IMG/VR virus record: IMGVR_UViG_3300021399_000101
Location: 129,630-193,629 of that record
DNA length: 64,000 bases
Strand: one strand, 5' to 3'
Source: a virus
Taxonomy: Duplodnaviria; Heunggongvirae; Uroviricota; Caudoviricetes
Shown: positions 1,862-37,949 of the stretch, piece after piece
Layout: each line of letters starts with the position of its first letter
How positions within the stretch are numbered: position 1 is the first letter of the stretch
Position numbers and translations under genes: made by a program
The notes under the pieces: model-generated
The model's database searches: none
What the model was told of the DNA's origin: nothing
Seen by the model: only the letters and a program-made list of their open reading frames with translations

Positions 1862-1933
1862 GCGGTTTTCGTATAATGGTTATTATACGACCTTGCCATG
1901 GTTGAGATACGAGTTCGATTCTCGTAAGCCGCT
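1862..1933 (+). tRNA. tRNA-Gly(GCC)
   Basis: Cloverleaf; anticodon arm CGACC-TTGCCAT-GGTTG; T loop TTCGATT. Confidence 0.9.
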
Positions 1934-1968
1934 TCCCATAGTTGCCTCCTTATCAATTTTACTATGGT

Positions 1969-2095
1969 TGGATACTAGCAGCAACATAAACTTATAGTTC
2001 TACTGAAAATAGAAGATATATGGCGAGCTTAAGTGCCGTGGCATATTCGCCACAATGACCAGTAGTTAGCCATGCAGATTTTTGGTATCCAGTTT
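1969..2095 (+). ncRNA. putative Y-RNA-like element 2
   Basis: Closing stem TGGATAC/GTATCCA, GCAGCAA after the 5' strand, 3' end CCAGTTT, internal hairpins. Confidence 0.6.
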
Positions 2096-2100
2096 GAGAC

Positions 2101-2129
2101 TTGACAAAAATCTTAAAAATTGTTAAAAT
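2101..2129 (+). promoter_or_regulatory. sigma70-type promoter driving the tRNA array
   Basis: TTGACA-17-TAAAAT followed by the recurring GTGTAAAGAAAA motif. Confidence 0.8.
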
Positions 2130-2550
2130 ATAGGTGTAAAGAAAAAAACAGAAATTTGGTTTTTCACAAATTGTTTCTTTCTGATTTTTCAACCGAACAT
2201 TTGTGGGTCGCTCCCACTCAAAGGCTTTTTGACCAAAGTACACAAAAACAATTTAGGAAACAAGAAAAGGGAAAGAGTTGAGGATAGCCCTTTGTTCTCA
2301 GAGAATTCTGCTTGTCACTCGTTACTTAGGCATTAGGAATTCCACCTTCGTAACCAATCCTCCTTTTGTGGGAAAAGATGAAACAGCCCAGTAGCATAAG
2401 TTGGTATGATGCTAGAAATCACACAGATAGGTCTAGTAATGCGTTTCCCACTTTTAAAAACTCGTCTGACACATGGTTAGGTAGAGCAGACGGTTCACGG
2501 TTTAGCGTTTTTTCCAGTTTGAAGCAAAACCAAACAAAAAGCCTTTATAT

Positions 2551-2622
2551 GTTCGGTTCGACTAATGGTTAGGTCATCACCCTCTCAAGGTGAAGATATT
2601 GGTTCGAATCCATTACCGAATA
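2551..2622 (+). tRNA. tRNA-Glu(CTC), copy 1
   Basis: Anticodon arm TCACC-CTCTCAA-GGTGA; acceptor GTTCGGT/ACCGAAT. Confidence 0.88.
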
Positions 2623-2625
2623 ATT

Positions 2626-2689
2626 TGGATACATACAGCAATACTTTTATAAATTTTCATTTTGGACAGAAAAAAAGCGTATCCAGTTT
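2626..2689 (+). ncRNA. putative Y-RNA-like element 3 (minimal)
   Basis: TGGATAC-AT-ACAGCAA ... GTATCCAGTTT with only an A/U-rich loop. Confidence 0.6.
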
Positions 2690-2730
2690 ATTATTGTAAT
2701 TGTAAAGATAAAAACGCAAGGAGAAAGTAT

Positions 2731-2856
2731 ATGGCACAGATTAATTGGTTTAACAGTATGAATAATTACTCAGCCAAGGCATCAGTCTGCCCTGATACCC
2801 TCATTACATTCAGAGGATATCACCAGCCATATATTTTCAAGCCGACATACCATTAA
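2731..2856 (+). CDS. small hypothetical protein (41 aa)
   Basis: AGGAG RBS, ATG, and a downstream terminator hairpin. Confidence 0.5.
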   Translation: MAQINWFNSMNNYSAKASVCPDTLITFRGYHQPYIFKPTYH

Positions 2857-2883
2857 AATACCTTACACACATAAAAATGGTAC

Positions 2884-2915
2884 AAGGCTTGGAGCGAAAG
2901 TTTCAAGCCTTTTTT
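2884..2915 (+). terminator. Rho-independent terminator-like hairpin
   Basis: AAGGCTTG..CAAGCCTT stem followed by a T tract. Confidence 0.6.
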
Positions 2916-2919
2916 ATTA

Positions 2920-2992
2920 TAGCCCTATCGTTCAACGGCAGGACATCTGATTCTGGTTCAGATTATCGAGGTTCAAATCCTTGTGGGGCTGT
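2920..2992 (+). tRNA. tRNA-Gln(CTG)
   Basis: Anticodon arm TCTGA-TTCTGGT-TCAGA; T loop TTCAAAT. Confidence 0.88.
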
Positions 2993-2993
2993 T

Positions 2994-3164
2994 ATGGAAA
3001 AAGATGTTTGTAATGAAATTTATAATTTCATTAAGGAGTGGGGCCCGGATATGGTTGCCTCAGAATTAAGTACAATAGTTCATTTAGCAGATATCCTTAC
3101 AAAAGAAGAAATTGTAGCAAGATGCGTGGCTATTAGAAATGCTTTATGGGATATAGAAAAATAA
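2994..3164 (+). CDS. small hypothetical protein (56 aa)
   Basis: ORF MEKDVCNEIY... between tRNAs; the ORF-track start at 2877 overlaps tRNA-Gln and is unlikely. Confidence 0.55.
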   Translation: MEKDVCNEIYNFIKEWGPDMVASELSTIVHLADILTKEEIVARCVAIRNALWDIEK

Positions 3165-3169
3165 ACGTT

Positions 3170-3253
3170 GGAGCTATGGAGTAATGGTATCTCAACGCCC
3201 TGCTAAGGCGTCCAACCTTTAAAGTTGTGCAAGTTCGATTCTTGCTGGCTCCG
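3170..3253 (+). tRNA. tRNA-Ser(GCT)
   Basis: Anticodon arm ACGCC-CTGCTAA-GGCGT; long variable arm. Confidence 0.9.
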
Positions 3254-3470
3254 AATTTTTGGTATTAAGTTCTGAAATAGTTTGCCATTCCACAGCTATT
3301 AAGAATACTGATACTAAAGAATCTGGTGACATTGGTGAAACTGGGAATCAGGTGGAATTGAGGAACAGCCTTTAGATTTGGTGGTGAATAATCCAATGTG
3401 TTACAGATAGGAAGAAGTAAGGCTACCAACCACCAGTATTTTGAATATTATGTTGTTGTAATATAATAAT

Positions 3471-3543
3471 TGCCCTAGAGTTCGTGTGGTAGAACGGTGG
3501 ACTGTTAATCCATGTGTTGTAGGTTCGACTCCTACTGGGGCAG
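3471..3543 (+). tRNA. tRNA-Asn(GTT)
   Basis: Anticodon arm GTGGA-CTGTTAA-TCCAT; canonical T arm. Confidence 0.92.
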
Positions 3544-3549
3544 TAAAAT

Positions 3550-3620
3550 GGCTAATTCGTTCAAAGGTAGGACCCATGGCTGAAGACCATGTTATCTTGG
3601 TTCAAGTCCGAGGTTAGCCA
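3550..3620 (+). tRNA. tRNA-Phe(GAA)
   Basis: Anticodon arm CATGG-CTGAAGA-CCATG. Confidence 0.88.
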
Positions 3621-3622
3621 TA

Positions 3623-3695
3623 GACTCGTTACCCAAGCGGCTAAGGGAGCAGTCTGCAAAACTGTTATCGGTGGATTCGACTTCCACACGGGTCT
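3623..3695 (+). tRNA. tRNA-Cys(GCA)
   Basis: Anticodon arm GCAGT-CTGCAAA-ACTGT; U discriminator. Confidence 0.88.
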
Positions 3696-3718
3696 CTCAT
3701 AAAATAAGTGAGGAAAAT

Positions 3719-3937
3719 GTGAGCGAGCTTAATCCGTGTCCAAAGTGTTTCTGCGAAGGAACTCAAATTGAAAAAGAGATATGGTATAAAGGTTATTATG
3801 ATAGTTCTTGTCTTCATAAATTTATAGCCAAATGCCCGTATTGTGGGTTCGAAATGAGGAGAAACGGCAAGAAACACAGAAAAGATTTAGTACTCAGTTG
3901 GAACACTTTATATAAGAAAAATTTTGACAGAGCATAA
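3719..3937 (+). CDS. Lar-like (restriction alleviation) zinc-ribbon protein
   Basis: GTG start after GAGG; ELNPCPKC ... CPYCG pattern typical of the Lar family. Confidence 0.55.
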   Translation: MSELNPCPKCFCEGTQIEKEIWYKGYYDSSCLHKFIAKCPYCGFEMRRNGKKHRKDLVLSWNTLYKKNFDRA

Positions 3938-3941
3938 AAAT

Positions 3942-4025
3942 AGAGGAGTACGTTAGCGGCTATACAGGCGGTCTTGAAAACCGATTGACCCAAAAGGTCC
4001 GTGGGTTCGAGTCCCACCTCCTCTG
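3942..4025 (+). tRNA. tRNA-Ser(TGA)
   Basis: Anticodon loop CTTGAAA, long variable arm, acceptor AGAGGAG/CTCCTCT. Confidence 0.9.
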
Positions 4026-4046
4026 AATAAAATAAAGGTGATTAAA

Positions 4047-4205
4047 GTGGATATTAAAAAGTATTTTGATGCAGTTGATGATGTATGTATAAATTGTCGC
4101 TATCTTAACGAAAAGACTTGTGAAACTTGTCCAGTCAGAAAGACTTGCGATGACATACTCAAATCAAAAGAATACGAGGAATATGTACTATCTCGCCTTA
4201 AATAG
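4047..4205 (+). CDS. small Cys-rich hypothetical protein (52 aa)
   Basis: AAGGTG RBS, GTG start; CINC...CETCP...C pattern. Confidence 0.55.
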   Translation: MDIKKYFDAVDDVCINCRYLNEKTCETCPVRKTCDDILKSKEYEEYVLSRLK

Positions 4206-4277
4206 GTTCTTAGCTCAGTTGGTTAGAGCACTTGTCTGATACACAAGGGGTCCTAAGTTCAATTCTTAGAGAGCCTA
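4204..4277 (+). tRNA. tRNA-Ile(GAT)
   Basis: Anticodon arm CTTGT-CTGATAC-ACAAG. Confidence 0.9.
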
Positions 4278-4280
4278 ATT

Positions 4281-4404
4281 TGGTTAGTTACAGCAATAAA
4301 ATTTTTGCATGGTCAACGCCGTAGATAGAGGTTCGAGTCCTTTTCTGCCCGTAAGTTTCGTGGGTGGATAGTTTAATGGTAGAACAACGTATATACTAAC
4401 CAGT
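4281..4404 (+). ncRNA. YrlA-type Y RNA (circularly permuted tRNA-like module inside a closing stem)
   Basis: Closing stem TGGTTAGT/ACTAACCA plus ACAGCAA; inside, in T-acceptor-D order: T arm AGAGG-TTCGAGT-CCTTT (4327-4343), loop-closed acceptor TCTGCCC/GGGTGGA, then TA and D arm GTTT-AATGGTA-GAAC. Confidence 0.8.
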
Positions 4405-4409
4405 ATATT

Positions 4410-4482
4410 GCCGGTGTAGCTCAATTGGCAGAGCAGCTGACCTGTAATCAGCAGGTTGGGGGTTCGATTCCCTTCGCCGGCT
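4410..4482 (+). tRNA. tRNA-Thr(TGT), C33
   Basis: Anticodon arm GCTGA-CCTGTAA-TCAGC. Confidence 0.9.
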
Positions 4483-4489
4483 TACACAT

Positions 4490-4563
4490 ACCCATGAGGG
4501 CAAACAAGCAGAGCCGCCACCCTGTCACGGTGGAGATAGCGAGGGCAGCACTCGTCGTGGGTG
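4490..4563 (+). tRNA. tRNA-Asp(GTC)
   Basis: Anticodon arm CCACC-CTGTCAC-GGTGG; atypical T loop GGCAGCA. Confidence 0.8.
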
Positions 4564-4622
4564 TAGGCAGATGAAAGTGCACAGTCATCTGTTGAAGTTT
4601 GTACAGACTTGGTTTAGCCGTT

Positions 4623-4692
4623 AGTAATGTAGTTTAAGGGTAAAACGCTCGGACGCCCCGAGAAATCTAGGTTCGAATCCTGTGTATTACTA
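4623..4692 (+). ncRNA. tRNA-like element with aberrant anticodon loop
   Basis: Acceptor AGTAATG/TATTACT, D arm and TTCGAAT T loop present; anticodon arm CTCGG-ACGCC-CCGAG has a 5 nt loop. Confidence 0.6.
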
Positions 4693-4699
4693 TAATAAA

Positions 4700-4772
4700 C
4701 GGGGTGTTGGATAGTGGCTATTCCGCCTGCTTTGGGAGCAGGATATCGTGGGTTCGAGTCCCGCCACCCCGA
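4700..4772 (+). tRNA. tRNA-Pro(TGG)
   Basis: Anticodon arm CCTGC-TTTGGGA-GCAGG. Confidence 0.92.
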
Positions 4773-4781
4773 CTAGCTGAC

Positions 4782-5070
4782 CTACCCGGTGTAGGAATAG
4801 TACAGATGATGAAGCAGACGTGTTTCATCATTGGCTTTGGACTGGCAGACGTGCCTGGGTCCACCTTTTTTAGTGGTAACCAAAACTTGGTATTACTCCA
4901 AAACTTGGGAAAGCCACACTTTGGAAAAGCTTCCTTGGAAGAGACGCCAAGCGACTCTATTCCGGATAATCCAAGGGAGCTGATTACCACCTCACCGTGG
5001 GGAGCAACCCACGCCTCTTTTGAGGGTAGAAATGCTGAACTGTCCGGGCGGTTCTAAAACTACCCGGAAC
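4782..5070 (+). ncRNA. unidentified GC-rich structured RNA (~290 nt)
   Basis: Multiple hairpins, three CCAAAACTTGG-like mini-hairpins, terminal pairing CCGG(T)GTAG/CTACCCGG; no credible ORF. Confidence 0.5.
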
Positions 5071-5072
5071 CT

Positions 5073-5143
5073 GCCGTTCTCGTATAATGGCATTACAGAA
5101 GTTTCGTAATCTTCTGATTGGGGTTCGATTCCCTAGAGCGGCT
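5073..5143 (+). tRNA. tRNA-Thr(CGT)
   Basis: Anticodon loop TTCGTAA; acceptor GCCGTTC/GAGCGGC. Confidence 0.85.
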
Positions 5144-5144
5144 T

Positions 5145-5303
5145 ATGACGAGAGAAGAAACATTAAAAAATATAAATGATTTAAATAAATTGCTTGATAC
5201 AATAACAGACGAGGAACTTTACGAACATATGATGAAAACCTCGCCGTCGTTTAGAGAAACAGTTGAAAAGCTTGATAAGTTTTTAAAAGATATGGGCTGT
5301 TGA
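5145..5303 (+). CDS. small hypothetical protein (52 aa)
   Basis: ORF MTREETLK... between tRNAs. Confidence 0.55.
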   Translation: MTREETLKNINDLNKLLDTITDEELYEHMMKTSPSFRETVEKLDKFLKDMGC

Positions 5304-5365
5304 TAGAGCGGTTGATATGATGGGCCCTTACCCCATATAGACTGGTTCGACTCCTTCACGGCTCA
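5294..5365 (+). tRNA. divergent tRNA-Lys(CTT), C33
   Basis: Anticodon arm ATGGG-CCCTTAC-CCCAT; mismatched T stem. Confidence 0.6.
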
Positions 5366-5370
5366 AATAT

Positions 5371-5443
5371 AGGACTGAAGTTCATAAAGTTGAACACTGC
5401 TCTCATAAGGCAGATGTAATTAGTGCAAGTCTAATCAGTCCTA
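5371..5443 (+). tRNA. tRNA with CAT anticodon (elongator Met or Ile2)
   Basis: Anticodon arm CTGCT-CTCATAA-GGCAG; fully paired acceptor, so not initiator type. Confidence 0.85.
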
Positions 5444-5449
5444 AAAAGC

Positions 5450-5688
5450 GGATTGCTGAACTAGCTTTATAAGAATAATTTCTCAAGAGTATAGTTCGAT
5501 TGGTAAAGAAAGGCCAAGAGCTATGTGTCGGATTGATTGACCGATTTTCCGAAATGAGTCAGGAAAACTGAATGATACGGAAGTACCTAACTTAGATTTA
5601 GGTGTGTGAGGGATTCCAAGTGGTAGGTAACGACTACAGAACGCTCACCGATAAAAAACTGTGAAACTCAGTATAATGGCTGTAATCC
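5450..5688 (+). ncRNA. unidentified structured RNA (~240 nt)
   Basis: Ends pair (GGATTGC/GTAATCC); ORF-free interval between two tRNAs. Confidence 0.4.
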
Positions 5689-5702
5689 ATTTTTAACAAT
5701 AT

Positions 5703-5775
5703 AGGCTCTTAGCTCAATCAGGAGAGCGCTTGCCTTACAAGCAAGAGGCAATTGGGGCAGAACCAATAGGGCCTA
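5703..5775 (+). tRNA. tRNA-Val(TAC)
   Basis: Anticodon arm CTTGC-CTTACAA-GCAAG; atypical T loop GGCAGAA. Confidence 0.85.
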
Positions 5776-5946
5776 AAGAAACTGACCTAAAGAGTTTCTG
5801 AAACTTTTTCTTTAGGAAGCGTGGGGAAGCCAGCGGGGCCATGTCGTTCGGACCAAACACCACAGTTAACCACGCAGAACGATACATGAGGCTGTATGTT
5901 ATGAGTAAGCCTTCCGGAGGGCATAACATAGGTTGCCTCAATTTTG

Positions 5947-6019
5947 GGGCGGTTCATATAAAGGCTTATTATGGTAGCTTTGCACGCTACTCATACGGGT
6001 TCGATTCCCGTACTGTCCA
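5947..6019 (+). tRNA. tRNA-Ala(TGC)
   Basis: Anticodon arm GTAGC-TTTGCAC-GCTAC; G3-U70 pair. Confidence 0.88.
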
Positions 6020-6020
6020 T

Positions 6021-6093
6021 GTGGATGCTAGTTTATTCAGCAAAACGCCGGGCTGTGGACTCGGAGTGCTAGGAGCAAAGCCTAGGTATCCAA
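6021..6093 (+). tRNA. tRNA-His(GTG)
   Basis: Anticodon arm CCGGG-CTGTGGA-CTCGG; encoded G-1; atypical D and T loops. Confidence 0.75.
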
Positions 6094-6196
6094 AGTTGTC
6101 CTAGACGTAGGAATCGTAGAACACCTAACACCTCTCTCGGAAGTGTCCCATGGGTCTCAATCGTAGGTGAGCCGGAAGCAGCGGGTACTGCTTAAT

Positions 6197-6282
6197 GACC
6201 GAGTACCCGAATAGGTATAGGGGCTTGGTTGAGGTCCAAGTGTCCGGTAACGGCAATGTGGGTTCAAGTCCCACCTCGGTCA
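6197..6282 (+). tRNA. tRNA-Leu(GAG)
   Basis: Anticodon arm CTTGG-TTGAGGT-CCAAG; long variable arm. Confidence 0.88.
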
Positions 6283-6391
6283 AATAGAGATAACAACATA
6301 ATTTAATCAGGCTATATTCTTCGGAATACGTCTCTAGTAACTGATTTCATTATTATACTGAAGAGGCTAGAGGCTTCAGTAATCTCTATAT

Positions 6392-6465
6392 GCTCTCGTA
6401 TCCCAATTGGCAGCGGAAGCTGGCTTAGAACCAGTTCAGTGTAAGTTCGAATCTTACCGGGAGTA
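6392..6465 (+). tRNA. tRNA-Leu(TAG) with short variable loop
   Basis: Anticodon arm GCTGG-CTTAGAA-CCAGT; variable loop only about 5 nt. Confidence 0.85.
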
Positions 6466-6470
6466 TAAAT

Positions 6471-6552
6471 GCCCTAGTGGAGTAATTGGCAGCCTCGCCA
6501 CGCTCAAAACGTGGTGCTGAAAAGCGTGTCGGTCCGAGTCCGACCTTGGGCA
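6471..6552 (+). tRNA. tRNA-Leu(CAA)
   Basis: Anticodon arm CCACG-CTCAAAA-CGTGG; long variable arm. Confidence 0.88.
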
Positions 6553-6556
6553 AAAT

Positions 6557-6636
6557 GGGGGAGTCGCATAGCGGCAATTGCAAGACGCTGTAAACGTCCC
6601 GCCTCGGCTTCGTAGGTTCGAGTCCTACCTCCCCCA
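6557..6636 (+). tRNA. tRNA-Tyr(GTA)
   Basis: Anticodon loop CTGTAAA; long variable arm; acceptor GGGGGAG/CTCCCCC. Confidence 0.9.
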
Positions 6637-6640
6637 AAAT

Positions 6641-6712
6641 GCCTTTGTAGCTCAGCGGTAGAATAACACTATGGTAAAGTGTAGGTCGATAGTTCGATTC
6701 TATCTGAAGGCT
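6641..6712 (+). tRNA. tRNA-Thr(GGT)
   Basis: Anticodon arm ACACT-ATGGTAA-AGTGT. Confidence 0.88.
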
Positions 6713-6723
6713 TATATATTATA

Positions 6724-7161
6724 ATGAGAGAGTTAACGACTAAAGAAAAAGGAAATATTACAGAACTAAAATGTGCAACCGCATTTATTGCTTTGGGCTA
6801 TAAGATTTCCATACCATATGGAGAAGATTGCCCCTATGATTTTATTGCTGATTTAAATGGAAAACTAATAAGAATACAGTGTAAAACCTCACATAAACTT
6901 AAAAATGGAGAAGGGTTTGAGTTTAAATGCTGTTCAGTTATAATTACAACCAAAGGGGTAAAAACAACAGAATATATCAAAAATGCTTTTGATTTCTTTG
7001 CCACAATAGATAATGATACCTGTTATTTAGTCCCTCTAGAAGAATGTGGCAAAGCAAAAATTTTACGTTATTGTTATCCTAAAAATGGTCAAAAGAAAAA
7101 AATTAGTTTAGCATCTGATTTTACATTAGATAATATGATTCATAAAATAATGGCCGCATAG
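6724..7161 (+). CDS. PD-(D/E)XK homing endonuclease (I-Ssp6803I-like)
   Basis: KGNITE..C...FIALGY.ISIPYGEDCPYDFI...IRIQCKT signature; free-standing in the tRNA array. Confidence 0.8.
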   Translation: MRELTTKEKGNITELKCATAFIALGYKISIPYGEDCPYDFIADLNGKLIRIQCKTSHKLKNGEGFEFKCCSVIITTKGVKTTEYIKNAFDFFATIDNDTCYLVPLEECGKAKILRYCYPKNGQKKKISLASDFTLDNMIHKIMAA

Positions 7162-7231
7162 CCTCATCTGACTTCTAATCAGATAAGAGTAATTGGAGCT
7201 GAAAATGGGGGTTCGAGCCCCTCTGCGGTCA
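7152..7231 (+). tRNA. topologically rearranged tRNA-Arg(TCT)-like RNA
   Basis: Acceptor GGCCGCA/TGCGGTC, T arm and TCTGA-CTTCTAA-TCAGA are intact; D-loop-like AATTGG lies 3' of the anticodon arm. Confidence 0.7.
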
Positions 7232-7234
7232 AAC

Positions 7235-7306
7235 GGTTCCATAGTAAAGTAGATATTATACCTCTCCCCTAAAGAGGAGTCCTTGGTGCAATTCCAAGTG
7301 GGACTA
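7235..7306 (+). tRNA. tRNA-Arg(CCT), C33
   Basis: Anticodon arm CCTCT-CCCCTAA-AGAGG. Confidence 0.8.
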
Positions 7307-7309
7307 AAT

Positions 7310-7382
7310 GCAGCTATCGTATAACGGCTTATTATGCTGTCCTTCCAAGTCAGAGATGAGGGTTCAGCTCCCTCTAGCTGCT
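7310..7382 (+). tRNA. tRNA-Gly(TCC)
   Basis: Anticodon loop CTTCCAA; acceptor GCAGCTA/TAGCTGC. Confidence 0.85.
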
Positions 7383-7385
7383 TAT

Positions 7386-7458
7386 AGGCTCATAGTTTAA
7401 TGGATTAGAATATGTGGCCACGAACCATAAGATGTCGATTCGATTTCGGCTGGGCCTA
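7386..7458 (+). tRNA. tRNA-Arg(ACG), C33
   Basis: Anticodon arm TGTGG-CCACGAA-CCATA. Confidence 0.82.
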
Positions 7459-7464
7459 TCTCAT

Positions 7465-7535
7465 TGGGACTTAGTGTAGGGGAAACACGCCAGTCTCCAA
7501 AACTGGAATCGAGATATCGTAATTCTCAGTCCCTG
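7465..7535 (+). tRNA. tRNA-Trp(CCA)
   Basis: Anticodon arm CCAGT-CTCCAAA-ACTGG; atypical T loop. Confidence 0.8.
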
Positions 7536-7544
7536 TAAAACTCT

Positions 7545-7572
7545 TGGTGAGGGTTCGACCCCTTCAGGACCA
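7545..7572 (+). pseudogene. 3' tRNA fragment (T arm plus acceptor strand)
   Basis: GAGGG-TTCGACC-CCTTC-AGGACCA with no matching 5' half. Confidence 0.4.
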
Positions 7573-8912: not shown

Positions 8913-9440
8913 ATGAAAAAGGCTATCGTTGCTATGCTCTTAGTTTTCTGTATGGCAGCACTGTTCGCAGCAACAATCACAACTCAGACAATCGTTTTGG
9001 TGTCTGTTGTCGAAGAAGTCAGACCTGGTTTCAGCCTTAAGGTGAATGACGTAGTTAACGGCTTCGTCCTCTCCAACAATGGTTCTGAAGCAATCATTGA
9101 GGCTTTTGATGTCAAGAAAGACGTATCTGTAAACTTTAGTGTTTATCAGTCACTTTCAAGATACAAAGGAGGAGTTGATGTAAACATTACAATCTCGGAG
9201 CTTTGCTGTAACGGTTTTTCTACAAAAGGTATGGAACTTTATGGTCAAATCAACGAGATTGCTGGAAGAACTGGATACTCAGTTGTTTCAGGTAATAGTA
9301 TTGATTTATACTTTGATTATACCGGAAAGACAGTAGATTATTCTTCTGCCGCTGAAATTTCCGTTAAGTATAACGGAGATTCCTCCCTCCCGGAAGGTGA
9401 GTATATTTCATACATTAAAATGTCTTACGTGGTCGAATAA
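8913..9440 (+). CDS. secreted pilin-like beta-sandwich protein (orphan paralogue of the 27-31.5 kb cluster)
   Basis: Signal peptide MKKAIVAMLLVFCMAALFA; C-terminal PEGEYISYIKMSY strand. Confidence 0.65.
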   Translation: MKKAIVAMLLVFCMAALFAATITTQTIVLVSVVEEVRPGFSLKVNDVVNGFVLSNNGSEAIIEAFDVKKDVSVNFSVYQSLSRYKGGVDVNITISELCCNGFSTKGMELYGQINEIAGRTGYSVVSGNSIDLYFDYTGKTVDYSSAAEISVKYNGDSSLPEGEYISYIKMSYVVE

Positions 9441-10745: not shown

Positions 10746-10749
10746 TAAT

Positions 10750-10819
10750 GTTCCCATCGACTAATGTAGGTCGTTACCTTCTCAGGGTAGAGATATTGGT
10801 TCAAGTCCATTTGGGAATA
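10750..10819 (+). tRNA. tRNA-Glu(CTC), copy 2
   Basis: Anticodon arm TTACC-TTCTCAG-GGTAG; paralogous to 2551-2622. Confidence 0.82.
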
Positions 10820-10822
10820 AAC

Positions 10823-27102: not shown

Positions 27103-28350
27103 TTATAAGTAATTATTCTCTGAAGTAACCACATAGTAGTATATGTTGGATGTATAGACTCCGCCATAATTCAACAGGTCTGCATTTATCTGCTCTTCTG
27201 TCAAACCCCCAAAATCTATCTCAACATCACCATTGAAAATGATAGAGTAACTTGTCTTACCTTCTCTGTCTATCAACTTTGTAGTTATAGGCGGGTCGTT
27301 AAAATTTATATAGTGAGCAGGCTTTCCATTATTGCTCTTATCAGTTCCATCAAATGTTGCAACCACATTTCCATCATGAAGCACATTCAGAGTATAAGGT
27401 ATCTGCTTCCCTGAAACTCTGTTTATGAGTTTAAACCCGCCTGTTACATTTGTCTTTGAACTGTCACTTGCAGATAGGAAGACAAATACTTTGTTGTTCC
27501 AATCATACTGTGCCTTAGACTGACAGAAAAAAGACATATTAGCAATGATAGACTTACCATTGTTCTCTCTAACTGTCTTAAGAATGTCGAGACTTAATGC
27601 ATTGACAGTTGGATTTACAAACAGAGACACCAGACTGTATCTCGGTTTTTCAGAACCAAAGTATCCACTCAGAACTACAGTATAATGGCCTTGGTGAGCA
27701 GGGTTGTCACAGTTGTTCTCTTCACAATGCCAATTGATGGTAAAGATGGCCATGTAGTCATCTTTCTCAGACAGCCTTTGTCTATCCTCAGATGTCAGTT
27801 CATCCATACAAAGAACAAGGTCAGCATGGAATCTGTCAATGGTCTTCATTGTTCCGCTGCTGTCTATTCTGACATAACTTCCTGACTCTGATACAGGAGG
27901 AGTGATATATGTCATTGAACCTGTCAACTTGGTATTAGTAAGCCTATCTGATAAATTGACATCCACCCCATTAGAGCCAAGATTATAGTTGGTATCCTGA
28001 CCATTCTTTATCCTGCACTTTGGTCTCATGGCAAGATAATAATTTCTGTATTTAGAAGGGTCAGACTGAGAGACAAACTTTCCATCTGTCACAATCTCAA
28101 ATCTGAGTTTGTGTTCACAGTCCTGAACACCAAAGTTGCCAAGAGTATTTATTGTACTGTAAGTTCCAGATATGGGGTCACCTATACTCTTGTCTTGTGT
28201 CCAAGTCTTCGTATAATTAGGGAGATAGTAGGCGTCACCCAAGTTTATGGTATCTGTCATTCTTGTGGAATACATATACCAGACCTTTTCAGCACCAAAG
28301 AGTAGAGAAGAACATAAAAGAATTATCAAAAATATCAGCAGTTTCTTCAT
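27103..28350 (-). CDS. secreted two-domain pilin/adhesin-like protein
   Basis: Signal peptide MKKLLIFLIILLCSSLLFG; C-terminal GGVYTSNIYYYV. Confidence 0.65.
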   Translation of the reverse strand: MKKLLIFLIILLCSSLLFGAEKVWYMYSTRMTDTINLGDAYYLPNYTKTWTQDKSIGDPISGTYSTINTLGNFGVQDCEHKLRFEIVTDGKFVSQSDPSKYRNYYLAMRPKCRIKNGQDTNYNLGSNGVDVNLSDRLTNTKLTGSMTYITPPVSESGSYVRIDSSGTMKTIDRFHADLVLCMDELTSEDRQRLSEKDDYMAIFTINWHCEENNCDNPAHQGHYTVVLSGYFGSEKPRYSLVSLFVNPTVNALSLDILKTVRENNGKSIIANMSFFCQSKAQYDWNNKVFVFLSASDSSKTNVTGGFKLINRVSGKQIPYTLNVLHDGNVVATFDGTDKSNNGKPAHYINFNDPPITTKLIDREGKTSYSIIFNGDVEIDFGGLTEEQINADLLNYGGVYTSNIYYYVVTSENNYL

Positions 28351-28922
28351 TGCAGGCTCTCCAGAACTAAGGTTACTGTGGAATGATAAGTTCCACTGTC
28401 AACTACTTCTGTACACAATCTCAGGTACAGACCTGCATTTTGCAACATTAAGATTCCTTGAATCTCATTAAATCTAAGTACTGCATTTTCATTGGCTAAA
28501 CAATACTCTGTCTTTTCCACCATAGAGGTGCCTTTCAAAACAGAATATACTGTACACAATTCATAATCATATTTTATAGAAGCATTATCATCATTTATCA
28601 GTTTGTCATGTGATATTGTCAGCTGATAATCAGAACTTGATGATATCAGAGAATAGTTAGCAATTAACAGACCAGGTACTGACTTCGGAGTTTGTGTAGG
28701 TGAAATCAAGTATCTAAAATTATTAGTTTCATCATTTATATTTAGATTAAGCCCTTTACCATCATTTGAGCCAGCATAATAGAAACTTGAGACTGTCATT
28801 TCAAAAACACCATTTATATGTGCAAGAATGCTGGTGTTTGTTGTGAGAAAGTCAAATTCCTTCCAGGCAAACAGTGGAGTAAGAACAAGAACCATAAGAA
28901 TAATTACAAGTATCTTCTTCAT
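28347..28922 (-). CDS. secreted pilin-like protein
   Basis: Signal peptide; C-terminal SGTYHSTVTLVL. Confidence 0.7.
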   Translation of the reverse strand: MKKILVIILMVLVLTPLFAWKEFDFLTTNTSILAHINGVFEMTVSSFYYAGSNDGKGLNLNINDETNNFRYLISPTQTPKSVPGLLIANYSLISSSSDYQLTISHDKLINDDNASIKYDYELCTVYSVLKGTSMVEKTEYCLANENAVLRFNEIQGILMLQNAGLYLRLCTEVVDSGTYHSTVTLVLESLQ

Positions 28923-29512
28923 GTTGCGTTGAACTCCACTGTCACATAACTGACATAATCGAAATTACCTGCTGTATCTTCATCATATTCAAGAATCTGA
29001 AGTGTACAGTATCCTGACTTTGGATGATTCTTCTTTACATTCTCATTATAGGTGAAAGAAGCTGAGTTGACGATGAATGAAGATGCCCCTGAGGAACCCT
29101 GTCTGTACCCCGGATAGGATGAACTTCCTGAAGTGGAAGTTGTGAACTCATGTGTCTTTAAAGTGGTGCCGTCTGTCATCTTGACAGTATGCTTGGGAAC
29201 ATAGTAAGTTCCGTTTGAGAAAGCCTGCAAAGGGGTGATTGTGAATGTGACGGTCACATCTATGTTCTTGTTGCCTGACAGCTCCCAGTTGAAGATTGTA
29301 ACCTCTCCTATTGTAGGGTCATCATCAGTATAGATGTCACCCGCATGATATATCCTGTCCATATCAAGATTGGAATCCGAAGCCCATACTCTGAAAATAA
29401 GGTTGGCCTCAGCTTCCTCATAGTATCCGTTTATATATACATGGTCAGTCACTATGGCATAAAAGCTTACTGGGATAAGAACCATAATCAGAACTATAAG
29501 TATCTTTCTCAT
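28919..29512 (-). CDS. secreted pilin-like protein
   Basis: Signal peptide; C-terminal AGNFDYVSYVTVEF. Confidence 0.7.
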   Translation of the reverse strand: MRKILIVLIMVLIPVSFYAIVTDHVYINGYYEEAEANLIFRVWASDSNLDMDRIYHAGDIYTDDDPTIGEVTIFNWELSGNKNIDVTVTFTITPLQAFSNGTYYVPKHTVKMTDGTTLKTHEFTTSTSGSSSYPGYRQGSSGASSFIVNSASFTYNENVKKNHPKSGYCTLQILEYDEDTAGNFDYVSYVTVEFNAT

Positions 29513-30060
29513 TCTGATACCCTCGCTATTGTGACCATGGAGTAATAATCTCCCTTGGCCATCTCATCAAAGTCAGTCAGAACCGCATCAAGATAAATCT
29601 TGGCAACTGTCTCACCAGAACCTATGACAGTGAACTGCACCACTTTTGTATTATCATCCTCATTAGGGTCCACATCAAGGATTGACGGGAATCCGTTTCC
29701 GTAGGTGATATACAACTCATAAGGATGAAGTTCAGGTCCGTCTGATTTCTTCATAGGGGTAGCGGAGAACTCTATCCTATGAGTTCCCTTGACATTGGTG
29801 ATGTATTTAATCAAACAGACATTGCATAATGTGGAGTTGTCAGCAGGAGATATATCTTTGAGATAATTGTCATCCATATCCTGCGGAAGACTTCCTGACC
29901 CGCTGTAAGGAACAACATACATTTCAGTGGTCTTTATGTTGTTGACAACCCAATGAACATTGAAATTAATATTTCCTGAATCCACAGCAAAAATATATGA
30001 AAAGACCATTGTAAATAAAAATAAGATTGTCAATGCTTTTTTCATATATTTCTCCAACAT
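29509..30060 (-). CDS. secreted pilin-like protein
   Basis: Signal peptide; C-terminal KGDYYSMVTIA. Confidence 0.7.
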   Translation of the reverse strand: MLEKYMKKALTILFLFTMVFSYIFAVDSGNINFNVHWVVNNIKTTEMYVVPYSGSGSLPQDMDDNYLKDISPADNSTLCNVCLIKYITNVKGTHRIEFSATPMKKSDGPELHPYELYITYGNGFPSILDVDPNEDDNTKVVQFTVIGSGETVAKIYLDAVLTDFDEMAKGDYYSMVTIARVSE

Positions 30061-30175
30061 TTGTAAAAAAATTATATATACAAGATAAAAATTTAAGGGC
30101 CATAATCCAATAGGTTTAATATGTGAATTATGGCCCTTAGAAAACGGTTGGTTCAGTAAGAACCTTTGTCAATGA

Positions 30176-30811
30176 TTAGTTAGAAGCAATTGTCAGAGTA
30201 ACTGTTGCCTGATAATCACCAGAAACTGCGTCCTCATTCTTGTTCCAAGTGCATGTGAAGGTAGCAACTGTAACAGGAGCATCTGTTGTAGCAGGCTGAG
30301 CATTACCAAGATAAGTAATTGTCTTAGCAGTTGCATCTCCGCCATAAGTTGCCTTAGCAGCAGCAAGGCTACCATCAGCAAATGTATTAACAGTTTTTGA
30401 ATTTACTGTGAACTTCTTGTACTGCTCATCTGCAGGATGTGCAGTTGTAGTAACTGCGACAACACCAGTACCAGCTGCATTAGGATACTGATAAAGAACA
30501 AGGTCAGTAGCAGTAGCAGAAAGAGTGTAAGTCTTAACAGACCTGCTCTTTGAAATCTGATTGACATTGAAAGTCACTGTCTGATTTGCATTAAGAAGCT
30601 CATCTGTTGTGATAACATAAGCATTATCAAGAGTACCTGCTGCCCCACCTAAATCATCATAAACAGTACCAGCTGCGAGTCTGAAAGTAGGCTCAATAGC
30701 ATTGATGTGTGTTGTAATGATAAGTGAAGCATCACCAGTGGAAGTTGCATCAGCGAAAACACCAACAAGAACAACTGCCATCATCAAAAGTGCGATAAGA
30801 AATTTCTTCAT
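30176..30811 (-). CDS. secreted pilin-like protein (candidate major subunit)
   Basis: AGGAG RBS; signal peptide MKKFLIALLMMAVVLVGVFA; Ala/Thr-rich; C-terminal SGDYQATVTLTI. Confidence 0.75.
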   Translation of the reverse strand: MKKFLIALLMMAVVLVGVFADATSTGDASLIITTHINAIEPTFRLAAGTVYDDLGGAAGTLDNAYVITTDELLNANQTVTFNVNQISKSRSVKTYTLSATATDLVLYQYPNAAGTGVVAVTTTAHPADEQYKKFTVNSKTVNTFADGSLAAAKATYGGDATAKTITYLGNAQPATTDAPVTVATFTCTWNKNEDAVSGDYQATVTLTIASN

Positions 30812-30842
30812 AATTTTTATTCTCCTATAGGATTAAATTTTC

Positions 30843-31511
30843 TCAGTTTGTGATATAGCTCATGGTGATGTTTGATGTATATTCACCAGGGGCTAAGCCT
30901 TCTGTCTTCTTCCAAGTAGCCGTAAAGAAGGCAAGATTTATATTTTCGATTGACTTACACAGATGGTAAGCTAAATAAAAATCAACACCATTATTTGTCT
31001 GAGAACCAGTTACTTTCAGACAATCCATATCTAAACAGCTTATATCTGAAATCACAGGCTGCGGAGTACTTACTACAGCAGTAGGATCCCGTGAAATCAG
31101 ATACTCGGACTCAATATTCACCAGACTTTCAGCTTCCACTGAAATGCTTATGGTCTCGTCTGTCCTTGTTTTGGCCAGCTGTGCTATCCGGAAATATACT
31201 TTTATATCTCCCTCAGATATATCATCAGCAATCAACGAATCCAACCCAGCATTGTTGGCAGAATCAAGCCCACCGTATAACTTATACAGGCTCAGCATTC
31301 CTTCACCTGCCGTAGCGGCATTACTTAAAGTAATTTTAGAAACAGTAGACCTAACCACTATGGTGCTTGTTTGCAGCGTTTGTGCAAATATGCAAAAAGG
31401 AAGCAAACAAAGCAAAAAAAATAAAAGTATTTTTTTAATCTTATGGCCTCCTTTTTGTTTTCCATCATTATCTTTAGCATTAGCAAGAAATTTTTTAATT
31501 TTTTTTAACAA
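30843..31511 (-). CDS. secreted pilin-like protein
   Basis: Hydrophobic N-region ending CIFA; C-terminal PGEYTSNITMSY. Confidence 0.7.
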   Translation of the reverse strand: MLKKIKKFLANAKDNDGKQKGGHKIKKILLFFLLCLLPFCIFAQTLQTSTIVVRSTVSKITLSNAATAGEGMLSLYKLYGGLDSANNAGLDSLIADDISEGDIKVYFRIAQLAKTRTDETISISVEAESLVNIESEYLISRDPTAVVSTPQPVISDISCLDMDCLKVTGSQTNNGVDFYLAYHLCKSIENINLAFFTATWKKTEGLAPGEYTSNITMSYITN

Positions 31512-31652
31512 TTCATTTTACAAATTTTAAAAATTTTTGTCAATTTTATTTTATTCTGTTTATATATAAGTTGCGAGTTTCTTAACTTTTTCCAAGTCCG
31601 CAACTTTCCGTTAACAGTTTATCAAATTTTAAATTTTTTGTAAATAAAAAAA

Positions 31653-31680
31653 AGACCGCTTAATTAAGCGGTCTTTTTAT
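31653..31680 (-). terminator. terminator after the major capsid gene
   Basis: AAAGACCGCT-TAATT-AAGCGGTCTTT inverted repeat with A/T tracts. Confidence 0.75.
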
Positions 31681-31698
31681 CTTCAGCTAATTCTTCGA

Positions 31699-33174
31699 TT
31701 AAGGAAGGTTGGTAATAGCAAGCTTTGCGTAGAACCACTCTCCACGAGGAGCAAGGGTAAGAGCATATCTGCTGAAGAATCCCTTGTTCTCATCGAATGT
31801 ATTCGGATCGAAGATGGAAGGTGTCATCCAGTTTGCATAAGGGCTGTAAACAACACCGGCACCGAATGTACTAATCGGGCTCTTGAAACCAAGAAGGATA
31901 ACATCCTCATCTGCTTCAACTCTGTTAGGATCGACGAAGTACTTAATCTTGCTCATGCTACCGATTGTGTAGATGTTAGGTGATGTAACAACAGTCTCCT
32001 TTGAGAACTCAGGAAGCATCTGAAGGATAGCTGCAACCTTAGGTGACACAACTGCCCAGTTAGCAGCACCCTGTCTGTTGTACTGAGCCATCTTTCCAGC
32101 GAGTGTGAAGATGCTCTGTGCAAGTGCACGATGTCTGTCGAGGTAGTTGTAAACGGGGTCTGTTCCGTTGAAGTTCCAGTTGTGGCTGTAAGCGAGCTGT
32201 GTAGGAACTGACTGGTCAATGAAGCTGATGATTTCACGGTCGATTTCATAGTTCATTTCAACAGATGCCATCTTAACAAGCTCTGCATCAAGGTCCATAT
32301 TGAAGTGAGCCTTGAGGTCCTGCATTGCTTCACGAGTGAATCTGACCTTGAGCTTTCTCTCGACTGTCTCGACAGATTTGCTCATAATCTGGAACTGCAT
32401 CTCAGGAATGTAAGCAGAAGATTCCTGCTGATATCTTACGAAGACAGAATAAGTGTCATTTGCAGTGTAAGTTGCAGGAGACTCAAGTGCAGGGAATGTA
32501 ACAACAATTGAGCCATCAGATGGAGCAGCAGCTGTAAGAGCAATAGCAGCACCGCCCTTGGTTGGGAATGCATAAGCCTTAACAATTGTCATGTTTGCCT
32601 TAATGAAGGAATCAGTACATGTGAATGTCCAAGCGTCTGCGGATGTGGATGCAACTGTAGCTGTGTAAGGTCCAAGATTCTGTGAGCTGTAATATGCCTG
32701 ACCAGCAATGTTTGCGCCAGCAGCAATATCCTGAGGATAGTTACCTGTGAAAGCCTGGTTCTTTAAGACGCCAGCCTTGTCATTGCTATACTGATATTCA
32801 GCATAGAAGATAACACCAGTCTTGCCCTGGATAGGCTGAACTGAAACGAGCTCATGAGCGATGAGCTGTGGCATGACACGTCTGATAACAGGAAGCATTA
32901 CCTTAGGAACGACGTAGTTTGCAACGCCCTTTCTAGGAACGTCAGCGCCGATTGTTCCCTGATAATCAGCCTGTGAAACGTTGGGGTTGGTGATGGGCTC
33001 TTCCATGAGAATTTCATCCATGGCTGATTCTGAAGCGAGCTCATTTTCTACCATATAGTTAGCGGAGTTCTCGAGAACCATCATTGTAGCATTGCGTACA
33101 TACTCATCCTCGATGCCTTCGCACATAAATGACCATCTATTCTGAAGGTCTTCAAGATTCTTAACTCTTGTCAT
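31699..33174 (-). CDS. major capsid protein (T4 gp23-like)
   Basis: LPVIRRVMPQLIAHELVSVQPI, RKLKVRFTREAMQDLKA.., EIDREII, DPNTF....GFFSRYA. Confidence 0.95.
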   Translation of the reverse strand: MTRVKNLEDLQNRWSFMCEGIEDEYVRNATMMVLENSANYMVENELASESAMDEILMEEPITNPNVSQADYQGTIGADVPRKGVANYVVPKVMLPVIRRVMPQLIAHELVSVQPIQGKTGVIFYAEYQYSNDKAGVLKNQAFTGNYPQDIAAGANIAGQAYYSSQNLGPYTATVASTSADAWTFTCTDSFIKANMTIVKAYAFPTKGGAAIALTAAAPSDGSIVVTFPALESPATYTANDTYSVFVRYQQESSAYIPEMQFQIMSKSVETVERKLKVRFTREAMQDLKAHFNMDLDAELVKMASVEMNYEIDREIISFIDQSVPTQLAYSHNWNFNGTDPVYNYLDRHRALAQSIFTLAGKMAQYNRQGAANWAVVSPKVAAILQMLPEFSKETVVTSPNIYTIGSMSKIKYFVDPNRVEADEDVILLGFKSPISTFGAGVVYSPYANWMTPSIFDPNTFDENKGFFSRYALTLAPRGEWFYAKLAITNLP

Positions 33175-33199
33175 ATTATTAAAAATACTCCTATTTTAA

Positions 33200-34009
33200 T
33201 TACTTGTAAAGTCTCATCATAGATTCACGGAGCACAGACTTTCTCTTAGGTCCGTCCTGGTCGTCCTCAAATTCCTCAGGAATTGAAGAAACTTCCTCTT
33301 TTACGCTCTCGTCTTTCTTTGATTTCTTCTTCTCGTCCTTTTTCTCGTCTTCGTCTTTGTCCTCGTCCTTATCGTCCTCGTCCTCATCATCAAAGTCGAA
33401 ATCAAGGTCTTCATCATCTTCATCATCTTCGTCGTCATCATCTTTAGACTTATCAGCTTCATTCAAAGACTCAACAATAGACTCGAATCTAGCTGTAACT
33501 TCTTCAGCGGTGCCTTCGCCGATGATGGCTCTAAGTGCTGGTTTGAATGCGTCGTCATAACCTTCAATAAGTTCTTCAAGAGTAGCAGCGCCTTCATCAA
33601 GTGCTTCCTTCCTTTCGTACTCAGCAACCTTGTCGGCAAGTCTCTTAATTTCACCCATATAGGTGTTCTCGACATACTCTTCGTTCATTAAAGGAGCAAC
33701 AAGTCTCAAGACCTCTTCCATCACCTTGTGGGTCGGGTCAGTTTCAACAGACTCTGCTAAAACCTCGGCTCTTACGTCTTCCCTCATTTCATCGAGAGCA
33801 GCAAGGAACTTCTCAGAATAAGCTTCTGCGACTTCCTCTCTCCAGGCATTGTTCTGTTCTTCAAGCTCGTCAAGTTTGGCCTGAATTCTCTCTTCAGCTT
33901 CCTCTTCGAGCTTAGCTGAGAAATCTTCCTTCCAAGCTTGAATTTCCTCTGCGAGCTTTGAAGCATCCTCTTCGGAAAGTTCAATATCAAGGATATCTTT
34001 ATTGTCCAT
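33200..34009 (-). CDS. prohead scaffold/core protein (gp22-like)
   Basis: Very acidic coiled coil immediately upstream of the MCP. Confidence 0.75.
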   Translation of the reverse strand: MDNKDILDIELSEEDASKLAEEIQAWKEDFSAKLEEEAEERIQAKLDELEEQNNAWREEVAEAYSEKFLAALDEMREDVRAEVLAESVETDPTHKVMEEVLRLVAPLMNEEYVENTYMGEIKRLADKVAEYERKEALDEGAATLEELIEGYDDAFKPALRAIIGEGTAEEVTARFESIVESLNEADKSKDDDDEDDEDDEDLDFDFDDEDEDDKDEDKDEDEKKDEKKKSKKDESVKEEVSSIPEEFEDDQDGPKRKSVLRESMMRLYK

Positions 34010-34134
34010 AATTTCTCCTAGTAAATTAATTTTTCTACTGTTATTATCTTGCAGATAGCAAGTACTTTTACTACTATTATCTTATCAGTATCTATTTACA
34101 AATAAACACTGAGATAATTTTAAAAACTCGAAGT

Positions 34135-34401
34135 TCAATCGTAGTCAAAAATTAAATCTTGTTCCCATTTATCAAAGATTTTTTTAACACCGTCAATCTT
34201 GAAAAATGGTTTGATTTCTTTCTCAACCCACTTTTTATATTCTTCTGAACCAGCAAACTCTCCAAAACTTTTGTCACTTTTTTCAAGTTGCTTTTCGTAA
34301 AGTTCATCGAACATGTTTCTATAATATTTAGCTACCTTGCGGTCGATTGCTTCTTCGGTTAAAACACCGGAATTCTTTAAAATTTCCTCTCTAAGGTTCA
34401 T
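34135..34401 (-). CDS. putative internal head protein
   Basis: N-terminal MNLREEILKNSGVLTE motif. Confidence 0.65.
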   Translation of the reverse strand: MNLREEILKNSGVLTEEAIDRKVAKYYRNMFDELYEKQLEKSDKSFGEFAGSEEYKKWVEKEIKPFFKIDGVKKIFDKWEQDLIFDYD

Positions 34402-35024
34402 GCTTTAAAAGCCTCTTTCCAAATCTGGCCAAGTGTTGTTTTCTTTTTATTGAATTCTATTCCCTCTGAAATAAAGTCTGGCGAACCAAACTCTCCAGCA
34501 GACGGGTCAAAAACAATATCAATTGCTCTAAGCGAAAAATCAGGCTGAACCTCAAGAACGTCTTCCATAACGCCCTCTCCAAGATTCATTCTTGCCTTTT
34601 TAACAGAACCAAGTCCTCTAGTAGAAACTCCAAGTTTGACACCTTCATCAACAAGCGTCTTAATAACCTTGCCTTTTGGTGTATCAAGAATTACCATTTC
34701 TCCAACAACCGTTCCGTCGTCCATCATCTGAAGCTGATTGACCTTTGCAGCAATTTCATAAAGATTAATTTTTGCAGTCTGAGGGTGCTCACATTCTGCG
34801 ACAAACCTTCCTTCAGCGATAGCTTTCTGCGCCTCTTCAACAGCATGTCTCATAACAGGAATGGGGTAAACACGGCCATTCTTGTTCTTAACGCCAGCTT
34901 TGGAAAAGCAGCCACGGATAACGTAATGCTTTTCTTTGTTACTTGCTTCCTCTGTAATTATCTGACATGTTGTGCTATCAAGCTCAGTATACTCATCTAA
35001 AGAAACAACTTTATTCTCTTCCAT
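34398..35024 (-). CDS. prohead core protease (T4 gp21-like)
   Basis: GCF..AGVKNKNGRVYP, ECEHP, TPKG, LGVSTRGLGS, DIVFDPSA. Confidence 0.93.
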   Translation of the reverse strand: MEENKVVSLDEYTELDSTTCQIITEEASNKEKHYVIRGCFSKAGVKNKNGRVYPIPVMRHAVEEAQKAIAEGRFVAECEHPQTAKINLYEIAAKVNQLQMMDDGTVVGEMVILDTPKGKVIKTLVDEGVKLGVSTRGLGSVKKARMNLGEGVMEDVLEVQPDFSLRAIDIVFDPSAGEFGSPDFISEGIEFNKKKTTLGQIWKEAFKA

Positions 35025-35955: not shown

Positions 35956-36026
35956 TATAATATATAAGATATATAAAAAATAAAAAACCCAGCAAAAACT
36001 GGGCTTTAAGTTTGAAATTAATTCAA

Positions 36027-36353: not shown

Positions 36354-36355
36354 TT

Positions 36356-37868: not shown

Positions 37869-37949
37869 CTTTTAGTCTAAAATTATCTTAACATAAATAA
37901 AGCCCAGCAAAACATACTGGGCTTTACTATATTACTATATATAGTAACA

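What the first reader, a model, noticed from the sequence alone, without database searches (positions are those of the whole stretch)
7152..7231. Rearranged tRNA-Arg(UCU): the D-loop sits 3' of the anticodon arm
Seen in sequence: acceptor GGCCGCA, then TAGC-CTC-ATCTGA [CTTCTAA] TCAGAT-AA-GAG-TAATTGGA-GCTG, AAAAT, a normal T arm, and TGCGGTCA. There is no D hairpin. Instead the D-stem strand pairs across an extended anticodon helix (TAGC/GCTG, CTC/GAG), and the D-loop word AATTGG with its GG is an internal loop on the 3' side, where it could still dock on the T loop. The first 10 nt overlap the stop of the adjacent homing endonuclease. Inference: a non-cloverleaf route to the L-shape that could evade tRNA-targeting toxins, or a rearrangement that destroys the endonuclease target site.
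Basis: partly seen in the sequence, partly recalled or inferred. Interest (0 to 1): 0.72.

Follow-up and report, generated by a model that had tools for sequence, protein, structure and literature searches.

The report
Rewired phage arginine tRNA, non-cloverleaf
This 80-base phage gene is very probably a working arginine tRNA whose inner strands are joined in a different order from the textbook cloverleaf; the design recurs in many phages, tRNA finders mostly miss it, and I found no paper describing it.

Summary
Observation confirmed; not an artefact. 7152-7231 is a tRNA-Arg(UCU) in which segment 10-21 (5' D-stem strand plus D-loop) follows the anticodon arm. I collected 199 distinct genes of this plan in 158 loci (162 Arg, 37 Ile-type anticodons), plus copies in cultured phages (Felix O1, phi92-like, PA11, Vibrio phages). 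Covariation supports the relocated D-helix and two of the four TAGC/GCTG pairs. The tertiary 15:48 pair is A:U in 187 and G:C in 12, never mismatched. Position 20 is A, the ArgRS determinant, in all Arg genes and U in 36 of 37 Ile-type genes. This phage (88% complete) has no canonical AGA reader, though AGA is 61% of its Arg codons. Felix O1 carries the rewired gene where Sf14 has a canonical one. Best reading: a functional elongator tRNA reaching the L-shape by a second wiring (0.8; charging and structure untested). The neighbouring endonuclease did not cause it: about 89% of copies have none adjacent. Toxin evasion is untested. Ten literature searches found nothing. This scan has reported the same class several times on other DNA.

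The parts
7152..7231 (+). Rewired tRNA-Arg(UCU) gene, 8-nt-connector subtype; strand order 1-9, 22-46, 10-21, linker, 48-73
   Evidence: family model R1 92.2 bits (the gene is in the training set)
7152..7158 (+). Acceptor stem 5' strand, pairs with 7224-7230
   Evidence: 7 of 7 pairs covary in A1
7159..7162 (+). U8, A9, G, C: 5' strand of the extra helix with 7198-7201
   Evidence: G-C to A-U in 7 of 18 and C-G to U-A/A-U in 5 of 18 members, 17 not selected on this motif; the U8-G and A9-U pairs never vary, so are untested
7163..7166 (+). CTC = positions 23-25 (3' D-stem strand equivalent) and A26
   Evidence: pairs with 7187-7189: 93/93, 93/93, 66/93 paired, all three with two-sided changes
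7167..7183 (+). Anticodon arm, loop CTTCTAA, anticodon UCU at 7174-7176 (reads AGA)
7184..7189 (+). U44, AA linker (45-46), then GAG = positions 10-12 (5' D-stem strand equivalent)
   Evidence: numbering is my inference
7190..7197 (+). Relocated D-loop: U13 A14 A15 U U G18 G19 A20
   Evidence: 15:48 covariation and A20/U20 by isotype
7198..7206 (+). GCTG (3' strand of extra helix), AAAA linker, U48 at 7206; some homologues carry a hairpin here like a variable arm
7207..7223 (+). Canonical T arm (loop TTCGAGC)
7224..7231 (+). Acceptor 3' strand and discriminator A73; CCA not encoded
6724..7161 (+). Free-standing PD-(D/E)XK endonuclease ORF (145 aa), a neighbour; its stop codon lies in the tRNA
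   Evidence: PF11645 E 2e-27
1862..7536 (+). Phage tRNA cluster holding the gene; canonical Arg(CCU) 7235-7306 and Arg(ACG) 7385-7460, no canonical Arg(UCU)

Best explanation
The gene encodes a working elongator tRNA-Arg that reads AGA. Its internal segment 10-46 is circularly permuted: after U8-A9 the chain runs down the 3' D-stem strand into the anticodon arm, comes back up as the 5' D-stem strand, passes through the D-loop (A14, A15, G18, G19, A20) and reaches U48 and the T arm by a short linker. The same pairs as in a normal tRNA form (10-25, 11-24, 12-23, 26-44, 15:48), so G18/G19 can dock on the T loop and A20 is presented to the host ArgRS together with C35/U36 and A73. Host RNase P, a 3' nuclease and the CCA-adding enzyme would mature it from the cluster transcript. 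Shown: sequence, conservation, covariation, isotype-specific position 20, same-slot replacement. Inferred: L-shape, G18/G19-T loop contact, processing, charging, decoding, and any selective advantage.
For: 199 distinct genes carry only Arg (UCU 93, ACG 38, UCG 16, CCU 11, GCG 2, CCG 2) or Ile-type (UAU 20, GAU 13, CAU 4) anticodons. D-helix covaries. 15:48 is A:U 187, G:C 12, no mismatch; among 38 genes matched by none of my search patterns 26 A:U and 12 G:C. In 88 genes not selected on position 20: A in 51/51 Arg, U in 36/37 Ile-type; A73 in all 37 Ile-type. A20, C35, U/G36 and A/G/U73 are the bacterial Arg determinants; A73 and U20 are listed for Ile (PMC9976931). G000 has no canonical Arg(UCU) while AGA is 1092 of 1800 Arg codons in long ORFs. 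Felix O1 has the rewired UCU gene between Ile(GAU) and Ser(UGA), the slot in which Sf14 has a canonical one. Loci with rewired ACG lack canonical ACG (0/32 vs 16/49, p 1e-4). U33, purine 37 and G53-U54-U55-C56 are kept, but my parser required them, so they add nothing.
Against: Exclusion is not significant for UCU (5/23 vs 24/59, p 0.086) or other anticodons, and several loci hold a canonical UCU gene close to a rewired one. G000 is 88% complete and loci are partial. How the extra TAGC/GCTG helix fits with a U8-A14 pair is unresolved. Homologues are related, so counts are not independent events.
Confidence: 0.8

Rival explanations
1. A tRNA mimic outside elongation: it folds into the L-shape and may be charged, but acts as a decoy for host tRNA-cutting or tRNA-sensing defence proteins, or binds ArgRS, rather than serving the ribosome.
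For: Rewired and canonical UCU genes coexist in 5 of 23 loci. In this genome the cluster follows a DUF2828/DUF7788 protein gene and holds a weak Y-RNA-like match below threshold.
Against: Anticodons run through the whole Arg set and follow isotype determinants; same-slot replacement of a canonical gene; no other AGA reader found in this genome.
Confidence: 0.1
2. Endonuclease-driven: the rewiring arose because it removes the DNA target of a neighbouring homing endonuclease, which then spreads the resistant allele.
For: Unrelated nuclease genes abut the gene here (PD-(D/E)XK), in PA11/TC6 (HNH, preceded by a relic 5' fragment of a canonical tRNA) and in Felix O1 (HNH). Adjacent nuclease-like ORF: 16/146 rewired vs 62/1058 canonical genes, p 0.03 (rough detection, non-independent).
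Against: 89% of copies have none detected; the 78/80-identical copy in L001 and the HHBS10_2 copy have none; only one other of the fetched viral and metagenome loci has a homologue of this nuclease, 2.3 kb from the rewired gene. A few point changes would destroy a target far more cheaply. As a mode of spread in some lineages I put it at about 0.25; the score given is for origin.
Confidence: 0.05
3. A simple D-armless tRNA with a long floppy variable loop, like mitochondrial tRNA-Ser(GCU); the D-loop-like word is incidental.
For: This is how the Rfam model aligns it; lone-sequence folding of the core is not better than shuffles (z -0.09).
Against: Covariation of the relocated helix, of 15:48 and of position 20 with isotype.
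Confidence: 0.03
4. The precursor is cut and re-ligated into a canonical cloverleaf, as with permuted tRNA genes of some algae (own knowledge).
For: The core pairs are the same in both strand orders.
Against: Needs three cuts and three ligations; no bulge-helix-bulge motif seen; termini are in normal order; the extra TAGC/GCTG helix exists only in the gene's order and covaries.
Confidence: 0.02

Closest known systems
Canonical class I tRNA-Arg(UCU) (Rfam RF00005), e.g. phage T5 tRNA-Arg and Sf14 tRNA-Arg
   Same: 7-bp acceptor, 5-bp T arm, 5-bp/7-nt anticodon arm, U8, A14, R15:Y48, G18G19, A20. T5's gene matches the rewired phi92-like gene at 39 of 43 bases over acceptor, T arm and adjoining bases.
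   Different: No D hairpin; segment 10-21 lies 3' of the anticodon arm; this subtype adds a TAGC/GCTG helix; 80 nt to the discriminator.
(8/4) and (9/3) allo-tRNAs (Mukai et al., PMC5389517)
   Same: Non-canonical tRNAs of bacteria and phages, missed by standard finders.
   Different: Those alter acceptor/T-stem lengths and remain cloverleaves; this keeps 7/5 and changes strand order.
D-armless mitochondrial tRNAs (PMC7609411, PMC9427863)
   Same: No hairpin between acceptor and anticodon arm.
   Different: They lose D-loop contacts and need adapted enzymes; here all D-loop elements are kept but moved, in phages that depend on bacterial enzymes.
Permuted tRNA genes of algae and archaea; tRNA-like domains such as YrlA Y RNAs (own knowledge, not tested beyond Rfam)
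   Same: tRNA parts in a different order.
   Different: Permuted genes swap the 5' and 3' halves and mature to a normal cloverleaf; Y RNAs are not decoders. No Rfam family other than RF00005 reaches its threshold here.

Membership tests
Canonical cloverleaf tRNA (RF00005) | 7-bp acceptor stem plus discriminator | tested here: met
Canonical cloverleaf tRNA (RF00005) | D hairpin between acceptor and anticodon arm | tested here: not met
   only 8 nt there; Rfam deletes the arm; the D-helix forms across the anticodon arm
Canonical cloverleaf tRNA (RF00005) | Anticodon arm with U33 and purine 37; T arm with GUUCRA | tested here: met
Canonical cloverleaf tRNA (RF00005) | R15:Y48 Levitt pair | tested here: met
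   187 A:U, 12 G:C, 0 mismatches
Canonical cloverleaf tRNA (RF00005) | L-shape with G18/G19-T loop contact | not testable with these tools
   GG and the T loop were required by my search, so no covariation test is possible
Bacterial tRNA-Arg identity class | A20, C35, U/G36, A/G/U73 | tested here: met
   A7197, C7175, U7176, A7231; 51/51 unselected Arg members have A20; determinants from PMC9976931
Bacterial tRNA-Arg identity class | Arginylation and decoding | not testable with these tools
   needs bench assay
Allo-tRNA (8/4, 9/3) | Acceptor/T stems of 8/4 or 9/3 | tested here: not met
   7/5 in all 93 members of A1
D-armless mitochondrial-type tRNA | D-loop elements lost | tested here: not met
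   A14, R15, G18, G19 and position 20 kept and relocated
Permuted tRNA genes | 3' half upstream of 5' half, matured through bulge-helix-bulge processing | tested here: not met
   termini in normal order; only the internal segment is permuted

The most novel reading that the evidence does not exclude
A second, naturally widespread architecture for translating tRNA: an internally permuted, non-cloverleaf Arg/Ile tRNA class that ordinary bacterial ArgRS, EF-Tu and ribosomes accept, kept by phages because host enzymes that attack or inspect the tRNA core do not recognise it.
Probability: 0.3. Interest if true: 0.9.

Novelty: new variant of a known kind. Interest (0 to 1): 0.78.

Why it matters
The cloverleaf strand order is treated as universal for tRNAs that serve bacterial ribosomes. 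A natural class with a different order would show that only the three-dimensional core matters, and gives a direct test of what ArgRS, EF-Tu, RNase P, modifying enzymes and the ribosome actually read. It also means phage tRNA inventories are incomplete: ARAGORN overlaps 25 of 199 genes and names the right anticodon in 10, and the gene is unannotated in Felix O1, phi92-like and PA11 records, which affects codon-usage arguments. It may offer a new scaffold for tRNA engineering. Laboratory phages carry it, so it can be tested at once.

Tried and rejected
Assembly artefact and pseudogene: rejected. Ten literature searches and reading of PMC5389517, PMC7609411, PMC9976931, PMC8421152 and PMC12482277 found no description; the library lacks most subscription journals and older Russian T5 work. 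My recollection that a T5 stable RNA might be this class was not borne out: T5's tRNA-Arg is canonical and my parser found no complete rewired gene in T5 28,000-46,000. No relative of the endonuclease was found in viral contigs. The FastTree count of 7 joint changes at 15 and 48 rests on a noisy short-sequence tree and is not used as a count of independent events. An earlier count gave the GAG strand as 7188-90; the correct place is 7187-7189.

Full report
Observation. The window is part of a 207,680-base, 88%-complete linear phage record, and the finding lies in a + strand tRNA cluster. ARAGORN misses the gene; the Rfam tRNA model accepts it at 39.2 bits only by deleting the D arm and inserting about 20 nt. 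The upstream ORF 6724-7161 is a PD-(D/E)XK endonuclease whose stop codon is the tRNA's U8-A9-G; the Pfam match ends at residue 135 of 145, so I read the overlap as a tail running to the first stop (inference).

It is a family, not an accident. A copy differing at two bases sits in a 284-kb phage contig behind an unrelated ORF. BLAST found full-length matches in 286 phage records, mostly near-identical Vibrio phages. Pattern scans and a structure parser gave 199 distinct genes in 158 loci: 162 with Arg anticodons and 37 with Ile-type anticodons, counting CAU as Ile2 by scaffold. Two subtypes differ in the connector after the acceptor strand: 8 nt (this gene, PA11, HHBS10_2, Vibrio D239 and X1) and 7 nt (Felix O1, phi92-like phages and most Ile genes). 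Of 199 genes, 130 have three or more canonical tRNAs within 2 kb.

Secondary structure. The helix CTC/GAG, on which the search did not select, is paired in 93/93, 93/93 and 66/93 with two-sided changes at all three pairs. TAGC/GCTG was fixed by the first pattern, so I tested it on 18 members of which 17 lack that pattern: the inner pairs change G-C to A-U seven times and C-G to U-A or A-U five times; the U8-G and A9-U pairs never vary and remain untested. This helix is not general to the 7-nt subtype.

Mapping onto tRNA numbering (inference). CTC-A is 23-26, the anticodon arm 27-43, T-AA 44-46, GAG 10-12, TAATTGGA 13-20, and T7206 is 48. The order 1-9, 22-46, 10-21, 48-73 is a circular permutation of the internal segment 10-46. 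From established tRNA structure, 9 contacts the 12-23 pair, 45 the 10-25 pair, and 21 lies beside 8/14 and 48, so all three new junctions join residues that are neighbours in the normal core. Two tests support the mapping. The 15:48 positions are A:U in 187 genes and G:C in 12, with no mismatch; the 12 G:C genes were passengers matched by none of my patterns and include both Arg and Ile genes and both subtypes. Position 20 is A in 51/51 Arg genes and U in 36/37 Ile-type genes not selected on it, and all Ile-type genes have A73; these match the bacterial identity sets in PMC9976931. A plausible origin is tandem duplication of 10-46 followed by two deletions; I have no direct evidence for it.

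Function. This record encodes canonical Arg(CCU) and Arg(ACG) but no canonical Arg(UCU), while AGA is 1092 of 1800 Arg codons in long ORFs. Felix O1 carries the rewired UCU gene, unannotated, between Ile(GAU) and Ser(UGA); the related phage Sf14 has a canonical UCU gene in that slot. Loci with a rewired ACG gene never held a canonical ACG gene (0/32 against 16/49); for UCU the trend is not significant (5/23 against 24/59), and some loci hold both. I therefore read it as a working elongator tRNA-Arg (0.8). Expression, charging, decoding and the L-shape are not shown.

Endonuclease and toxin ideas. A nuclease-like ORF lies within 150 nt of 16/146 rewired and 62/1058 canonical genes (p 0.03, rough and non-independent). 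PA11-type phages show a canonical 5' fragment, an HNH gene and then the rewired gene, which fits spread by homing in some lineages, but most copies have no nuclease, so it does not explain the design. The anticodon loop is standard, so enzymes that read only the loop would not be evaded; those that read the D arm or core might be. This is untested.

Novelty. No Rfam family beyond RF00005 and no paper in ten searches describes the plan; reviews of non-canonical tRNAs cover allo-tRNAs, Sec, Pyl and armless mitochondrial forms. It works like a tRNA-Arg but fails the cloverleaf test, so I file it as a new variant of a known kind. Earlier notes of this scan report the same class in other genomes. 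My reading was set down before I saw them; they gave the lead to Ile members, which I confirmed. Their claims on Tyr/Trp forms and on two bacterial species I did not test.

Noticed in passing
L536:13433-13504 (-), phage T5 'RNAX'; also L534:4822-4893 (+): An unannotated tRNA-like element with acceptor stem, an apparently canonical D arm, no clear anticodon arm, then the 3' half of a rewired Ile-type gene (CCG, TAACTGGT, T arm). A possible hybrid or intermediate with two D-loop words.
   Followed up: partly
L537 about 970-1000 (TC6), L538 about 1415-1445, L062 upstream of the HNH gene: Relic 5' fragment of a canonical tRNA (acceptor strand plus D arm) upstream of the HNH gene and rewired tRNA in PA11-like phages; FBPa8 has lost most of the HNH gene by deletion.
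   Followed up: partly
window 4490-4563: tRNA-Asp(GUC)-like cloverleaf with A8 and T loop GGCAGCA, missed by ARAGORN and not listed as tRNA by Rfam at E <= 1 (read).
   Followed up: no
window 4623-4692 and 5703-5775: Two tRNA-like genes found only by Rfam: one with a 5-nt loop in place of the anticodon loop, one Val(UAC) with an unusual T loop.
   Followed up: no
window 4309-4406, 5468-5579, 159-1601: Sub-threshold matches to YrlA (23.8 bits) and RAGATH-33 (42.1 bits) inside the cluster, behind a DUF2828/DUF7788 gene; a DUF2828 gene also precedes the Sf14 cluster.
   Followed up: no
G000 90383-140449 (includes window 2550-2623, 10749-10820): Eight ARAGORN tRNA-Glu genes (5 CUC, 3 UUC) in one phage record.
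   Followed up: no
window about 7540-7572: Isolated T arm and acceptor-like 3' end directly after tRNA-Trp: a tRNA 3' fragment.
   Followed up: no
L075, L077, L079, L121 and others: Canonical tRNA-Arg(CCG) genes contain the same word GGAGCTGAAAAT, there as anticodon loop, stem and variable loop; coincidence or a clue to origin.
   Followed up: no
L027:918-1008, L043:1952-2042, L364:1173-1262, L034:4102-4190: Rewired Arg and Ile genes with a variable-arm-like hairpin after the relocated D-loop.
   Followed up: partly
window 8913-9440: 175-aa ORF with a signal-peptide-like start; it reminded me of spirochaete exported proteins (memory only), a possible host clue.
   Followed up: no
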